A program made the position numbers and the translations under genes. A stretch of 64,000 bases of DNA from a virus (Duplodnaviria > Caudoviricetes), in IMG/VR virus record IMGVR_UViG_3300037851_000141, positions 160,001-224,000 of that record; one strand, written 5' to 3'. Below the pieces are notes generated by a model that saw only the letters and a list, made by a program, of their open reading frames with translations, was not told where the DNA came from and ran no database searches. Of this stretch, positions 30,981 through 34,012 are shown one piece after another; within the stretch, counting starts at the first letter, position 1, and each line of letters opens with the position of its first letter.

Positions 30981-31617
30981 CTTTACAGCTTTAGCAAAAA
31001 TGATTGAGCAAAACCAGTTGATGATTCAATTCTTATATTCTATTGCTCTTGAGCGGAAGGTAACAATTGATGATTATAATTCAGTAAAGCCTCAGAATCT
31101 TAGTAATGATTATGCGTTTGATATATTGGCAAAATGTATATCTGACTTGGAACAGAATTCTCAAATTGAATATTATAAAGTCATGTTAGGTTCCAAGGAT
31201 TTAACTGACTCGTTTTTCAATGATGTTCAAGGCTTTATTAAGAAGTTTGAAGACCTTACTGATGTTGAAATTGATGAAACTACTTCAGATGGTAAGATGT
31301 CAGAGATTGAAATGAAATTGATTGCGGATGGAATATCTTTGTCAAATACTATGTTGAGCCGAAGTTTATCATATATTGCTGATTTGATTCAACGGTTACA
31401 TGCTTCCACATTTAAGAAGATAATAATTACACTTCTTCGTAATGGAGTTGATATCAATAGGATAATACAGACAAAAGCTAATGAAAAAGATAAAGAATAT
31501 ATTAAACAAAAGATAAAAACTGAACTTGAAAAATTACCAGATGGTTTACAAAAAGAAAAAGTAAAAAACTACCTTTGTAAGAGATTTGACATTGATCCAA
31601 CTGAACTTGAGGCTTGA
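30970..31617 (+). CDS. hypothetical protein
   Basis: GAGG RBS, long ORF. Confidence 0.7.
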   Translation: MTFDFTALAKMIEQNQLMIQFLYSIALERKVTIDDYNSVKPQNLSNDYAFDILAKCISDLEQNSQIEYYKVMLGSKDLTDSFFNDVQGFIKKFEDLTDVEIDETTSDGKMSEIEMKLIADGISLSNTMLSRSLSYIADLIQRLHASTFKKIIITLLRNGVDINRIIQTKANEKDKEYIKQKIKTELEKLPDGLQKEKVKNYLCKRFDIDPTELEA

Positions 31618-31664
31618 CATTCTAAAAATTGATGTAGAATGATGGCGTTAGAAAGGGGTGGATT

Positions 31665-32456
31665 ATGCCTCTTCAAGAAGTACGCGCCAAGCATTTTAGC
31701 AACGGATCGGTATATGCTCTTAAAACCGATTCTGGACACCCTATTGAAACAACTGATACTTTTCTTCCGTTCTACACAAAGAATGCGAAAGATCAACATA
31801 CTAACGTTCTAACGGATTATAATTTAGGTGATCGTAGTGAACGTTGGATGGTTGGTGTTTCTGTAAGTTCAAGCTGTCTAGTTCGTTGTAAGTTTTGTGC
31901 TACTGGTAAGTTAAAAGGATTCCGTAATTTGGCTGCGGATGAAATTGTTGACCAAGTTGAATTTGTATTGGCCAAGAATCCAGAATATAAGTTTAGTAAT
32001 GCGAACGAACATAAAATCAACTATACAAGAATGGGTGAACCGTTTCTTAATATTGAAGCTGTTCGTAAAGCGATTGAGATAATTGATCAACGATATCCAA
32101 ATACTCACCATTATGTCAGCACTATCGGAATTGCTGGTGCTGATTATTCGTGGATCAAAGATAACATCACTTTACAACTGAGTTTACATAGCCTTGATGA
32201 CGCTCGTAGAAATGACCTAATTCCATATAAGAACAAAGTTAGTGTTGAAGAGTTAGGCAAGATCAGAACCAAGAGTCATTTGAAGACTACAATCAATCTG
32301 ACTCTCGTTGATGAAGCAGATTTTGATATTGATATTATTAAGAAATATTTTGATCCAGAGTATTTCTTTATCAAGTTATCGCCTATTAACAAAAACGACA
32401 TTTCAATTGCTAATGGGCTTGGTGACGGTATAATCAAAGCAACAAACCTGAAGTAA
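31665..32456 (+). CDS. RlmN/Cfr-like radical SAM enzyme, N-terminal part
   Basis: CLVRCKFC, MGEP, STIG, LSLH; lacks AACGQL C-terminus. Confidence 0.85.
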   Translation: MPLQEVRAKHFSNGSVYALKTDSGHPIETTDTFLPFYTKNAKDQHTNVLTDYNLGDRSERWMVGVSVSSSCLVRCKFCATGKLKGFRNLAADEIVDQVEFVLAKNPEYKFSNANEHKINYTRMGEPFLNIEAVRKAIEIIDQRYPNTHHYVSTIGIAGADYSWIKDNITLQLSLHSLDDARRNDLIPYKNKVSVEELGKIRTKSHLKTTINLTLVDEADFDIDIIKKYFDPEYFFIKLSPINKNDISIANGLGDGIIKATNLK

Positions 32457-32466
32457 GGAGCCTACC

Positions 32467-32604
32467 ATGGACACTCAAACCATCCAAGAACAACTCACTC
32501 AAGCCGGCTATGATAATGCGATTGCCTGTGCTACTGAAGCTGAAATCAATGCTAAAGCGGCTTGCGGGCAATTGGCTATCATTACCGAGGCTGATGCGCA
32601 ATAA
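32467..32604 (+). CDS. 45-aa peptide carrying the RlmN-type AACGQL catalytic-Cys motif (not in ORF track)
   Basis: MDTQTIQEQLTQAGYDNAIACATEAEINAKAACGQLAIITEADAQ; AAGGAG RBS. Confidence 0.75.
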   Translation: MDTQTIQEQLTQAGYDNAIACATEAEINAKAACGQLAIITEADAQ

Positions 32605-32608
32605 AATA

Positions 32609-32616
32609 TATAAATA
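32609..32616 (+). promoter_or_regulatory. T4-type late promoter
   Basis: TATAAATA upstream of CCA enzyme. Confidence 0.6.
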
Positions 32617-32638: not shown

Positions 32639-33979
32639 ATGCCCACTTTTTCGATAAAACACATTCTGGATGAAGCATTTGGTCGTACTGTTGATGACTT
32701 AAATGCTAAACTTGTTCAATTAGCTAAAACCTGGGGTGGTAAAGTATATATTGTTGGTGGTGCCGTTCGTGATGAATTGATGGGCATTAAACCTAAAGAT
32801 ATTGATTACCTTGTCACTAAAATTGAATCATCTGATCTTGCTAAAAAACTACAAAATATTCTTCCTGGTGCCAAGGTAAATGAAGTAGGTAAATCTTTTG
32901 GTATCATAAAACTTGTTGTTGGTGATGATGAATATGATTTTGCTATTCCAAGAGCCGATGTTGATAGAGATAATGTAAAAACTGATCCAAATATCCCGGT
33001 TGAACAAGATTTATTGAGAAGAGACATAACAATAAATTCTATGGCTAAGGATGTTGAAACTGGAGAAATAATATCTGCTTTTGGTGAAGATGGCGTTGCT
33101 GATGTTAAGAATAAGATAATAAAAGCAACAGGCGACCCAAAACAGAGATTTAAGGAAGATCCGTTAAGGATGTTAAGGTGTATACAATTTTCTGCTCGTT
33201 TTGGATTTGATATTGAACCAAACACATTTAAAGCAATTCAAGAACTTAAAGATGATTTCAATCAATTATCAGTAGAACGATTTAGAGACGAATTCTATAA
33301 AGGTTGGACTAAAGGTAATAAAGACACCACGAAATTCTTACAACTATTAGTGGATACTGGTGTAGGTAATCTCTTATTTGGTTCAGATTTTAAGCCTATT
33401 GCCATTGATATAAAGAATAAAGATCCAGAGTCAGCATTCAATGCGCAATATATAGCAATGTTCCTTAATGGCGGCGACCCAACCAGATTAAGCAACTTTA
33501 ACTATGATCATGATTTGATTTTTGTTGCTCGACTCTTAAAATCTTTTATTGATAATGGTATTGATTGGAATGAATTGAAAAAGTTATATAAACATGGAGA
33601 TTTATTCCCAATTATTGCTGAAGCTTTTTATCTTATTGATCCTAAATTGGGTGATAAACTAAAGAGTATGTTATCAAAACCTCTTATACAACGGTTAAAT
33701 AAATCTCGTTGGAATATATGGGAGTTGCCGATTCAAGGTGGAGAAATACTTGAAATAATGGGTGGTAAAATACAAAATAAATCAATACCAGTTGTTATAC
33801 AGAAACTCATAAAAGCCTATCAAAATGGAGAAATAGCAATAAATCCAGATAATGAAGATGAATCTAAAGAACTTGCTAAAAAATATATATCAACTGTACT
33901 GGTAAACGATAAAGATATAAAAGAATCAGATCGTCTTGGTATATTTGAATCAAGAATCTTCAACATTTTCAACCGATAA
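32639..33979 (+). CDS. cca: class II tRNA nucleotidyltransferase (CCA-adding enzyme)
   Basis: VGGAVRD, DIDY, RRDITINSMA, EDPLRMLR..F..RF, ER. Confidence 0.92.
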   Translation: MPTFSIKHILDEAFGRTVDDLNAKLVQLAKTWGGKVYIVGGAVRDELMGIKPKDIDYLVTKIESSDLAKKLQNILPGAKVNEVGKSFGIIKLVVGDDEYDFAIPRADVDRDNVKTDPNIPVEQDLLRRDITINSMAKDVETGEIISAFGEDGVADVKNKIIKATGDPKQRFKEDPLRMLRCIQFSARFGFDIEPNTFKAIQELKDDFNQLSVERFRDEFYKGWTKGNKDTTKFLQLLVDTGVGNLLFGSDFKPIAIDIKNKDPESAFNAQYIAMFLNGGDPTRLSNFNYDHDLIFVARLLKSFIDNGIDWNELKKLYKHGDLFPIIAEAFYLIDPKLGDKLKSMLSKPLIQRLNKSRWNIWELPIQGGEILEIMGGKIQNKSIPVVIQKLIKAYQNGEIAINPDNEDESKELAKKYISTVLVNDKDIKESDRLGIFESRIFNIFNR

Positions 33980-34012
33980 AAGAATATAAATACAATACGA
34001 GGAACTTATATT

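What the first reader, a model, noticed from the sequence alone, without database searches (positions are those of the whole stretch)
31665..32604. Split RlmN/Cfr-like radical SAM enzyme with the catalytic cysteine on a separate 45-aa peptide
Seen: the 263-aa ORF has CxxxCxxC, MGEP and SLH motifs but stops before the C-terminal helix. A different-frame ORF 10 nt downstream, with an AAGGAG RBS, encodes ..EINAKAACGQLA... Established: in RlmN/Cfr the Cys of AACGQL carries the methyl group and forms the covalent RNA adduct. Inference: a two-chain class A methyltransferase (tRNA A37 or rRNA target), or a substrate-like peptide acted on in trans. It sits directly before the CCA enzyme.
Basis: partly seen in the sequence, partly recalled or inferred. 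Interest (0 to 1): 0.6.

Follow-up and report, generated by a model that had tools for sequence, protein, structure and literature searches.

The report
Two-piece phage RlmN-like radical SAM enzyme
This giant freshwater phage makes a relative of the RNA-methylating enzyme RlmN in two separate pieces. The key cysteine sits on its own 45-residue mini-protein and RlmN's second essential cysteine is missing; many phages share this layout, I found no paper on it, and its target is unknown.

Summary

- **The two genes.** ORF1 (31665-32456, 263 aa) is an RlmN/Cfr-type radical SAM core. ORF2 (32467-32604, 45 aa, own AAGGAG ribosome-binding site) carries the AACGQL cysteine loop.
- **Conservation.** 80 of 85 related phage loci keep a separate peptide gene. 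It lies in all three frame relations to the core gene, and in 38 loci other genes sit between the two.
- **Selection.** The peptide is under purifying selection.
- **No core-peptide fusion.** None appeared among the 85 loci, the 150 best-scoring core relatives, or the 50 longer proteins that contain the peptide.
- **Homology.** Together the two chains are colinear with RlmN residues about 79-346.
- **Docking.** The complex model scores ipSAE 0.85 against 0.00 for the best control. This may partly reflect likeness to solved RlmN structures.
- **Differences from RlmN/Cfr.** The resolving cysteine (E. coli C118) is glycine in every member checked. The N-terminal RNA-binding domain is absent. The peptide is instead found fused to a small class-I methyltransferase (17 clusters) or to a second radical SAM enzyme (3 clusters).

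I read it as a dissociable cysteine-carrier subunit of a one-carbon-transferring radical SAM enzyme. The target is unknown. Here the module sits between two tRNA arrays; elsewhere NAD-salvage genes are common neighbours.

I found no paper on it. This scan has already reported the same system in at least 10 other genomes.

The parts
31614..31643 (+). Sigma-70-like promoter match (TTGACA-N18-AATGAT) 22 nt before ORF1
   Evidence: 10 of 12 consensus positions matched. This is a weak lead, because such matches are no more frequent in this region than in shuffled sequence (21 found against 18.1 expected).
31665..32456 (+). Radical SAM core chain (263 aa), homologous to RlmN residues about 79-299. 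It lacks RlmN's N-terminal domain.
   Evidence: Pfam PF04055 scores 8.4e-07. TIGR00048 scores 76.7 bits, far below its cut-off of 290. PDB RlmN 6FZ6 matches at 3.7e-10. hhalign against RlmN gives E 8.5e-39.
31854..31856 (+). Gly64 codon (GGT) at the position of the RlmN resolving cysteine C118
   Evidence: One search aligns 'wmvGvsvsssC' of ORF1 with 'ttvCvscqvgC' of RlmN. One search finds Gly at this position in 79 of 79 family members scored.
31875..31898 (+). CX3CX2C motif (C71, C75, C78) that binds the [4Fe-4S] cluster. These are the only cysteines in ORF1.
   Evidence: the three cysteines are invariant in the family alignments.
32028..32042 (+). RMGEP motif (residues 122-126), equivalent to GMGEP of RlmN
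   Evidence: Residues 121 and 123 are among the modelled interface residues with the peptide.
32455..32460 (+). AAGGAG ribosome-binding site for the peptide gene. It overlaps the ORF1 stop codon and lies 6 nt before the ATG.
   Evidence: Read directly from the sequence.
32467..32604 (+). Gene for the 45-aa cysteine-carrier mini-protein (helix, beta strand and AACGQL loop), homologous to RlmN residues about 308-346
   Evidence: - hhalign against the RlmN C-terminus.
- Separate peptide gene in 80 of 85 loci.
- pN/pS 0.22.
- Complex model ipSAE 0.85 against a best control of 0.00.
- Single copy in this genome.
32563..32565 (+). Cys33 codon (TGC), the equivalent of the RlmN methyl-carrier cysteine C355
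   Evidence: A-C-G-Q is invariant in the 36 aligned peptides; both Cys codons are used across the family.
32609..32616 (+). TATAAATA promoter-like motif between the peptide gene and the CCA-enzyme gene; likely the downstream boundary of the two-gene unit
   Evidence: 26 copies in the window against 11.5 expected, mostly in intergenic DNA on the coding strand. Another copy lies at 33985, before the next gene.
32639..33979 (+). CCA-adding enzyme gene. This is context only and is not shown to belong to the module.
   Evidence: It is not a neighbour of the module in the related loci.

Best explanation
The two genes encode a self-contained two-chain enzyme derived from an RlmN/Cfr-type (class A) radical SAM methylase.

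**Architecture**
- The 263-aa chain is the [4Fe-4S]/SAM-binding barrel.
- The 45-aa mini-protein adds the barrel's last helix and beta strand.
- It also places its loop cysteine (Cys33, equivalent to RlmN C355) next to the cluster and SAM site.

**Proposed chemistry (inferred by analogy with RlmN)**
1. Cys33 is S-methylated from SAM.
2. A 5'-deoxyadenosyl radical abstracts a hydrogen atom from that methyl group.
3. The resulting Cys-CH2 radical adds to an sp2 carbon of the substrate, most plausibly an adenine ring.

**Why the peptide is a separate chain**
- The cysteine is deliberately kept on a dissociable chain.
- I read the peptide as an exchangeable one-carbon carrier that can leave the core and visit other enzymes.
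- In related phages it is fused to a small class-I methyltransferase or to a second radical SAM enzyme.
- No fusion to its own core turned up.

**Product release**
- The RlmN resolving cysteine is absent, so release of the product must use a different base or thiol.

**Target**
- In this phage the module sits between two tRNA arrays, beside Ro60, Thg1 and the CCA enzyme.
- tRNA or another RNA is therefore my favoured target here, but the target is not established.
For: **Shown**
- **The split is conserved.** 80 of 85 loci have a separate downstream peptide gene on the same strand. Among the 42 adjacent pairs, all three frame relations occur (7, 13 and 22 loci). In 38 loci 260-2855 nt of other genes intervene.
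- **It occurs in unrelated phages.** Examples are crAss-like Kehishuvirus tikkala, Moorella phage MTATph1, Vibrio phage D479, and the Ounavirinae phage Wc4 with its relative P778.
- **The peptide is translated and constrained.** Across 52 distinct sequences pS is 0.78 and pN 0.17. The invariant ACGQ is written with all synonymous codons.
- **The two chains are colinear with RlmN.** The core matches RlmN 79-299 and the peptide matches 308-346.
- **The complex model supports docking.** ipSAE was 0.85 in all three runs, and the best of three controls scored 0.00.
  - That mark was reached by 58 of 80 solved complexes and 2 of 110 mismatched pairs.
  - The runs agree in at least 80% of contacts, and the partner's pLDDT is at least 72.
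  - Peptide residues 15-19 pair with core strand 234-238.
  - Core residues 77-83 (cluster loop) and 121/123 (MGEP) are in the interface.
  - So are the family-specific N-terminal residues 9-16, 28-32 and 41-47.
  - The pass may come partly from likeness to solved single-chain RlmN structures.
- **Fusions exist with other partners, but no core-peptide fusion turned up.**
  - Among 50 longer proteins containing the peptide, 17 are fusions to a small class-I methyltransferase, in both orders.
  - Three are fusions to the second radical SAM enzyme.
  - None is a full core-peptide fusion.
- **The second radical SAM enzyme is the commonest neighbour.** It occurs in 13 of 34 dereplicated loci, always on the same strand.
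- **Context in this window.** There are 20 tRNA genes at 15.8-23.9 kb and 37.8-40.8 kb. Ro60, Thg1, IF3, YggL and the CCA enzyme are also nearby.

**Inferred**
- The chemistry, the carrier role of the peptide, and the target.
Against: - **The resolving cysteine is missing.** Gly replaces C118 in 79 of 79 members. The window's ORF1 has no spare cysteine, and no extra cysteine is conserved in the core or peptide alignments. C118 is described as indispensable in RlmN/Cfr (PMC9692996). A catalytic methyl transfer like RlmN's is therefore not assured.
- **RNA-binding features are reduced.** RlmN's N-terminal domain is absent. The complex is also less basic than RlmN: core net charge about 0 and peptide -4.6, against +7.8 for canonical RlmN. 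Both points weaken an RNA target.
- **The tRNA context is not conserved.** Only 5 of 34 dereplicated loci have tRNA genes within 3 kb. NadV occurs in 6 loci, and NUDIX, NMNAT-like, PARP, NADAR and NAD-kinase genes also recur as neighbours.
- **The complex model cannot show binding.** It may be recalling the RlmN fold.
- **No experimental data exist.**
Confidence: 0.5

Rival explanations
1. The architecture is the same, but the target is a small adenine nucleotide of NAD metabolism or immune signalling (NAD+, ADP-ribose or a derived signal) rather than RNA.
For: - In 150 neighbour proteins from dereplicated loci, the top Pfam families are NAPRTase/NadV (6), a further radical SAM (6) and NUDIX (4).
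- CTP_transf_like (2), PARP, NADAR and NAD kinase also occur.
- NadV lies directly upstream of the module in several loci, for example L026:1610-3001 and L013:1401-2801.
- A PRPP synthetase lies upstream in L043.
- The loss of the RNA-binding N-terminal domain and the lower net charge fit a small substrate.
- Earlier notes of this scan reached the same idea independently.
Against: - In this genome NadV lies 66 kb away and the NMNAT-like gene 27 kb away. The immediate neighbours here are tRNA-related.
- NadV is next to the module in only 6 of 34 dereplicated loci, some of them related lineages.
- NAD-salvage genes, tRNAs and accessory enzymes commonly share the same auxiliary regions of large phages, so adjacency may not mean a shared pathway.
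- No radical SAM chemistry on NAD of this kind is known to me.
Confidence: 0.2
2. The peptide is a consumed co-substrate. Without a resolving cysteine the reaction stops at the covalent Cys-CH2-adenine adduct, so the 45-aa peptide ends up covalently attached to the RNA or nucleotide target. The core is freed because the cysteine is on a separate chain.
For: - RlmN C118A and the equivalent Cfr variants accumulate exactly such a protein-RNA crosslink (PMC9692996).
- All family members carry Gly at that position, and no other cysteine is conserved.
- No fusion of peptide and core turned up, as expected if a fused enzyme would be a suicide enzyme.
- Vibrio phage D479 encodes two tandem peptide modules in one ORF, which would supply more of a consumable.
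Against: - A related clade lacks C118 yet keeps the Cys loop fused in one chain (I/N/T at that position with ..SNCGQ..). Loss of C118 therefore need not stop turnover.
- Another general base or a cellular thiol could resolve the adduct.
- The peptide gene is single-copy with an ordinary ribosome-binding site, with no sign of large excess production.
- It is unclear what a phage would gain from peptide-tagged tRNA or rRNA.
Confidence: 0.15
3. The peptide is the substrate and end product (RiPP-like). The radical SAM core, and where present the second radical SAM enzyme and the methyltransferase, mature the small protein into a modified peptide with its own activity.
For: - The arrangement of a small conserved peptide gene beside one to two radical SAM genes and a methyltransferase resembles RiPP clusters.
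- The inserted cassettes in L019, L043, L006 and L009 also carry 103-116-aa proteins with Cys/Gly-rich C-terminal tails next to the second radical SAM enzyme.
- ORF1 gives weak hits to peptide-maturase models (E 4e-4 to 0.09).
Against: - The whole peptide, not just a leader, is conserved. It is homologous to structural elements of RlmN itself, namely the last helix, the last strand and the Cys loop.
- It is modelled as a strand of the barrel.
- The peptide has no hypervariable core region.
- The minimal system in this window has neither the second radical SAM enzyme nor the methyltransferase.
Confidence: 0.1
4. The split is an artefact: a one-base assembly error, a decaying pseudogene, or a programmed +1 frameshift that restores a single chain.
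For: Removing one T of the TAA at 32454-32456 would join the two frames.
Against: - The split recurs in 80 of 85 independent loci, in all three frame relations, with 2-2855 nt and often whole genes between the two ORFs.
- The peptide has its own ribosome-binding site and ATG.
- It is under purifying selection.
- No core-peptide fusion was found among the loci, the 150 best-scoring core relatives or the 50 longer peptide-containing proteins.
Confidence: 0.01

Closest known systems
RlmN (dual-specificity 23S rRNA A2503 / tRNA A37 C2-methyltransferase; TIGR00048; PDB 3RFA, 4PL1, 5HR7, 6FZ6)
   Same: - It shares the radical SAM barrel with the CX3CX2C, GMGEP-type and SLH motifs.
- The beta hairpin before the cluster loop is present ('NGxV..L....G..IE').
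- The C-terminal helix, strand and A-C-G-Q-L cysteine loop are colinear with RlmN 79-346.
   Different: - The cysteine loop is on a separate 45-aa chain.
- C118 is replaced by Gly.
- The N-terminal domain of about 78 residues is absent.
- A family-specific insertion of about 20 residues lies between 'LP' and 'ERW', and in the model it touches the peptide.
- The TIGR00048 score is 76.7 against a cut-off of 290.
- Net charge is near neutral or acidic rather than basic.
Cfr (23S rRNA A2503 C8-methyltransferase; TIGR04432/NF000424; PDB 9P0P)
   Same: It has the same class A mechanism and fold. ORF1 matches the Cfr models at 5.5e-15 to 2.8e-14 and PDB 9P0P at 1.2e-06.
   Different: Scores are far below the cut-offs (about 55 bits against 530-550). 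Cfr has both cysteines (C105 and C338) in one chain.
Uncharacterised short single-chain RlmN-like proteins lacking C118 (I/N/T/M at that position, C-terminal ..SNCGQ..; for example P0191 from a candidate division WOR-3 bacterium)
   Same: They have no N-terminal domain and no cysteine at the C118 position, and they retain the CGQ loop.
   Different: Their loop is fused in one chain. They form a separate clade, sister to the C118-containing forms, in a quick tree. Their function is also unknown.

Membership tests
RlmN/Cfr class A radical SAM methyltransferases | CX3CX2C motif binding the radical SAM [4Fe-4S] cluster, in an RlmN-type barrel | tested here: met
   C71, C75 and C78 are invariant. 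hhalign against RlmN gives probability 99.96%, E 8.5e-39.
RlmN/Cfr class A radical SAM methyltransferases | Methyl-carrier cysteine (RlmN C355 / Cfr C338) in the C-terminal A-C-G-Q-L loop of the same polypeptide | tested here: not met
   The loop and cysteine are present and invariant. They lie on a separate 45-aa gene product in 80 of 85 loci, and no fusion to the core was found.
RlmN/Cfr class A radical SAM methyltransferases | Resolving cysteine (RlmN C118 / Cfr C105), seven residues before the first cluster cysteine | tested here: not met
   Gly64 here and Gly in 79 of 79 relatives. ORF1 has no non-cluster cysteine. PMC9692996 calls this cysteine indispensable.
RlmN/Cfr class A radical SAM methyltransferases | N-terminal helical domain preceding the barrel | tested here: not met
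   The alignment starts at RlmN profile position 79, and ORF1 has only 17 residues before it.
RlmN (TIGR00048) / Cfr (TIGR04432) equivalogs | Whole-protein score above the curated cut-off | tested here: not met
   76.7 bits against 290 for RlmN; 53.2 bits against 550 for Cfr.
RlmN/Cfr class A radical SAM methyltransferases | Forms m2A or m8A in 23S rRNA A2503 or tRNA A37 | not testable with these tools
   This needs an enzyme assay or nucleoside mass spectrometry.
RiPP radical SAM maturase with precursor peptide | Precursor with a conserved leader and a variable core. Maturase with a peptide-recognition (RRE) or SPASM/twitch domain. | tested here: not met
   The peptide is conserved along its whole length with no variable core. 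ORF1 has no extra cysteine motif or RRE hit, only weak partial hits to maturase models over the cluster region.

The most novel reading that the evidence does not exclude
The module is a natural 'C118-less' RlmN that ends at the covalent adduct. It would enzymatically graft a genetically encoded 45-aa peptide, through a Cys-S-CH2 bridge, onto an adenine of host or phage RNA, or of an NAD-type nucleotide. The separately encoded peptide would be a consumable tag. This would be a new kind of peptide-nucleic acid conjugation used by phages.
Probability: 0.15. Interest if true: 0.92.

Novelty: new variant of a known kind. Interest (0 to 1): 0.7.

Why it matters
- **Enzymology.** RlmN and Cfr are the textbook examples of methylation through a protein-bound methylcysteine, and both of their cysteines are considered essential. 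Here a large phage family keeps one cysteine on a detachable mini-protein and has dropped the other. Either the crosslink is resolved in a way not yet known, or the peptide is a one-carbon carrier shuttling between enzymes, or it becomes covalently attached to the target. Each outcome would extend radical SAM enzymology.
- **Phage biology.** Each outcome would also point to an undescribed phage activity on RNA or adenine nucleotides during infection.
- **Testability.** The system is small, at two genes. Cultured phages carry it: Kehishuvirus tikkala, Pectobacterium phages Wc4 and Arno, Yersinia phage P778, Vibrio phage D479 and Moorella phage MTATph1. It is therefore directly testable.

Tried and rejected
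- **Reads.** The junction could not be checked in raw reads and no expression data were obtained.
- **Assembly error, pseudogene or programmed frameshift.** Rejected on conservation, frame diversity, intervening genes and pN/pS.
- **Pfam, NCBIfam, PHROGs and PDB sequence searches with the 45-aa peptide alone.** No hits. Only the profile-profile comparison shows the homology.
- **A more distant clade with Gly at the C118 position (for example P0206, P0201).** I checked it for a separate peptide. It ends in ..EGFTYAFRH, with the helix and strand but no Cys loop, and has no downstream peptide gene. It is a different variant.
- **Accessory genes in this genome.** There is no homologue of the small methyltransferase. 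The second radical SAM enzyme gives only a generic 20%-identity hit at 276.9 kb. The module here is the minimal two-gene form.
- **Names of the related fused clades.** These gave only automatic 'radical SAM' or 'RlmN' labels.
- **Position 37 of the window's tRNAs.** A in 13 of 20, and G in His and Arg(ACG) among others. This is uninformative about the target.
- **Tree.** Only the quick tree finished. It places all forms with Gly at the C118 position on one side of a branch with SH-aLRT 85. My group labels in that call were partly wrong, so I use it only as a rough guide.
- **Literature.** Six full-text searches found no description of a split or phage RlmN-like system.
Full report
**1. What is in the sequence**

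ORF1 (31665-32456, + strand, 263 aa) has the radical SAM motif at C71/C75/C78, RMGEP at residues 122-126 and SLHS at 173-176. It ends at TAA 32454-32456. AAGGAG (32455-32460) overlaps this stop and lies 6 nt before the ATG of ORF2. ORF2 (32467-32604, 45 aa, +1 frame) contains ..INAKAACGQLA...

ORF1 is Pfam Radical_SAM. Its best NCBIfam hits are RlmN (TIGR00048, 1.6e-21, model positions 101-244 of 355) and Cfr, all far below the curated cut-offs. Its best solved relatives are RlmN structures (6FZ6, 4PL1, 5HR6/7, 3RF9) and Cfr 9P0P. The peptide alone hits nothing in Pfam, NCBIfam, PHROGs or the PDB.

The window belongs to a 331,849-bp phage record.

**2. The split is real and conserved**

The closest GenBank relative is the crAss-like Kehishuvirus 'tikkala' (64% identity). 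It has a 262-aa core gene followed by a 43-aa gene encoding ..AQAACGQLAS... Other GenBank phages show the same pair:

| Phage | Arrangement |
|---|---|
| Moorella phage MTATph1 | core gene followed by a 40-aa peptide gene |
| Vibrio phage D479 | ORF carrying two tandem copies of the peptide module |
| Pectobacterium phage Wc4 and Yersinia phage P778 | an unrelated gene of about 90 aa lies between the core gene and the peptide-bearing gene |

A scan of IMG/VR found 272 relatives, and I examined the best 80 loci. Together with the five GenBank loci:

- 80 of 85 have a separate peptide gene of 37-68 aa downstream on the same strand.
- Of the five without one, one locus is cut 271 nt after the core.
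- In the 42 loci where the genes are adjacent (gap 2-66 nt), all three frame relations occur (7, 13 and 22 loci).
- In 38 loci 260-2855 nt intervene.

No single indel can explain this pattern.

The peptide is under purifying selection. Over 52 distinct 28-codon segments pS is 0.78 and pN 0.17. The invariant A-C-G-Q is encoded by all synonymous codons.

The core family is large. It has 2013 clusters at E <= 1e-5 in the 5.8-billion-protein set, and the best 120 are all 257-282 aa. An exhaustive HMMER search finds 295 representatives at E <= 1e-10.

**3. Homology of the two chains to one RlmN**

Profile-profile comparison aligns the core family with RlmN profile positions 79-299 (probability 99.96%, E 8.5e-39). 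It aligns the peptide family with positions 308-346 (probability 88.8%, E 2.5e-6). The break therefore falls in the loop after the 'NLIPYNP'-type strand. The peptide is the last helix, the last strand and the cysteine loop. The first 78 or so residues of RlmN (its N-terminal domain) have no counterpart.

A complex model of core alignment, peptide alignment, 4Fe-4S and SAM gave ipSAE 0.85 in all three runs. The best of three controls scored 0.00. That mark was reached by 58 of 80 solved complexes and 2 of 110 mismatched pairs. The runs agree in at least 80% of contacts, and the partner's pLDDT is at least 72.

In the model:

- Peptide residues 15-19 pair with core strand 234-238.
- Core residues 77-83 (cluster loop) and 121/123 (MGEP) are in the interface.
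- The family-specific conserved N-terminal residues (9-16, 28-32, 41-47) are also in the interface.

Because these are the halves of a fold with solved single-chain relatives, the pass may come from that likeness. It shows compatibility, not binding.

**4. How it differs from RlmN/Cfr**

The RlmN resolving cysteine (C118; 'tvCvs') aligns with Gly64 ('mvGvs'). Gly occupies this position in all 79 relatives scored. ORF1 has only the three cluster cysteines, and the peptide family has only one conserved cysteine. A review of the field states that C118 (Cfr C105) is indispensable for resolving the protein-RNA crosslink and probably acts as the base that triggers its fragmentation (PMC9692996).

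I inspected the 150 best-scoring representatives for two features: the residue at the C118 position, and the presence of a C-terminal CGQ motif.

| Residue at the C118 position | C-terminal CGQ motif in the same chain | Note |
|---|---|---|
| Gly | never present | the family described here, plus a related clade with no Cys loop at all |
| Cys | present in most full-length proteins | canonical type |
| I/N/T/M | present (..SNCGQ..) | a third group |

A quick, not fully converged tree puts all Gly-type proteins on one side of a branch (SH-aLRT 85). The Cys-type clade has support 99 and the I/N/T-type clade 99.

The two-chain complex is also less basic than RlmN. Core net charge is about 0 and peptide -4.6, against +7.8 for RlmN.

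**5. Partners of the peptide elsewhere**

The commonest neighbour in 34 dereplicated loci is a second radical SAM gene of generic type (243-298 aa). It occurs in 13 loci, always on the same strand, and often lies between the core gene and the peptide gene. There are two cassette types:

- a 103-116-aa protein with a Cys/Gly-rich tail followed by the second radical SAM enzyme;
- the second radical SAM enzyme followed by a 147-aa class-I methyltransferase-like protein.

I searched the 5.8-billion-protein set with the peptide profile for longer proteins and obtained 50 hits:

- 17 are fusions of that small methyltransferase with the peptide. In 16 the peptide is C-terminal and in one it is N-terminal.
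- Three are fusions of the second radical SAM enzyme with the peptide (330-336 aa).
- The rest carry assorted other N- or C-terminal extensions.
- None is a full core-peptide fusion.

So the peptide behaves as a portable module that is tethered to other enzymes, and I found no case of it tethered to the barrel it completes. This is why I favour a dissociable carrier role.

This window's genome has one peptide gene, no such methyltransferase and no close second radical SAM enzyme. It holds the minimal two-gene form.

**6. Target**

In this window the module lies between two tRNA arrays: 20 tRNA genes at 15.8-23.9 kb and 37.8-40.8 kb. It is in a region that also encodes Ro60, Thg1, IF3, YggL, a DHH phosphoesterase and the CCA enzyme.

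Four of the five GenBank carriers have 22-27 tRNA genes; Moorella phage MTATph1 has one.

The adjacency is not general, however:

- tRNA genes lie within 3 kb in only 5 of 34 dereplicated loci.
- NadV is a neighbour in 6 loci. NUDIX, NMNAT-like, PARP, NADAR and NAD-kinase genes also recur among 150 neighbour proteins.
- In this genome NadV is 66 kb away and the NMNAT-like gene 27 kb away.
- A TATAAATA motif lies between the peptide gene and the CCA gene. It is enriched in the window, with 26 copies against 11.5 expected. This suggests the CCA gene has its own promoter.

The target is therefore open. RNA is favoured by ancestry and by this genome's context. An adenine nucleotide of NAD metabolism is a serious rival.

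**7. Verdict**

It is a true two-chain RlmN-like system, but not a canonical class A methyltransferase, and its target is unknown.
- I found no paper on it in six full-text searches.
- Earlier follow-ups of this scan described the same system in at least ten other genomes, with the same main conclusions. My checks here were made independently of them, except that I took up their NAD lead and tested it by neighbour counts.

Noticed in passing
L019:3946-5159, L043:3781-4983, L006:3901-5115, L009:3783-5000, L021:3796-4680, L057:4090-4902: A cassette is inserted between the core gene and the peptide gene. It holds a 103-116-aa protein with a Cys/Gly/Ser-rich C-terminal tail ending in Cys (for example ..DDGCGRGGYPRSSC), followed by a second radical SAM enzyme of 271-298 aa with a C-terminal CxC motif. 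It looks like a second pairing of an enzyme with a cysteine-bearing small protein.
   Followed up: partly
L036:3780-4965, L018:3799-4961; proteins P0284-P0307, P0318: A small (about 147 aa) class-I methyltransferase-like protein (phrog_5399) lies just before the peptide gene. In 17 protein clusters it is fused to the peptide, in both orders. This suggests it acts on the peptide's cysteine or is docked through the peptide.
   Followed up: partly
proteins P0305, P0308, P0313: These are natural in-frame fusions of the second radical SAM enzyme with the cysteine-loop peptide (330-336 aa). No fusion of the RlmN-like core with the peptide was found.
   Followed up: partly
L005:2800-3081 (Vibrio phage D479): One ORF carries two tandem, nearly identical copies of the peptide module (..GAACGQMAIL.. 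twice).
   Followed up: no
proteins P0180, P0188, P0197, P0201, P0206 and others; L089:863-1681: A related clade of 258-287-aa proteins has Gly at the C118 position. It keeps the last helix and strand (..AAEGFTYAFRH) but has no cysteine loop and no peptide gene nearby. It therefore has neither RlmN cysteine.
   Followed up: partly
proteins P0191, P0210, P0219, P0227, P0235 and others: These are short single-chain RlmN-like proteins (298-335 aa, one from a candidate division WOR-3 bacterium). They have I/N/T/M instead of C118 but keep a fused ..SNCGQ.. loop. P0235 has two adjacent cysteines (..LCCGQ..).
   Followed up: no
protein P0331: A 154-aa protein joins the core's N-terminal part, up to just after the cluster motif, directly to the end of the peptide (..EIVE|AVAIATQAEIENGAACGQL..). 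It is probably a deletion or assembly chimera.
   Followed up: no
window 10227-62774 (26 sites, for example 32609, 33985, 35566): TATAAATA is enriched in the window (26 copies against 11.5 expected; none of 100 shuffles reached 26). It lies mostly just upstream of genes on the coding strand, like a phage promoter.
   Followed up: partly
window 1-50000: The region encodes an unusual set of translation-related proteins for a phage: IF3, a YggL-like 50S-binding protein, Thg1, the CCA enzyme, Ro60 and a DHH phosphoesterase. It also encodes two thymidylate synthases, DHFR and two TnpB-like (Cas12f1-like TNB) proteins.
   Followed up: no
L023:3929-4009: ARAGORN calls a tRNA with a four-base anticodon (catc) immediately after the peptide gene of this locus.
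   Followed up: no
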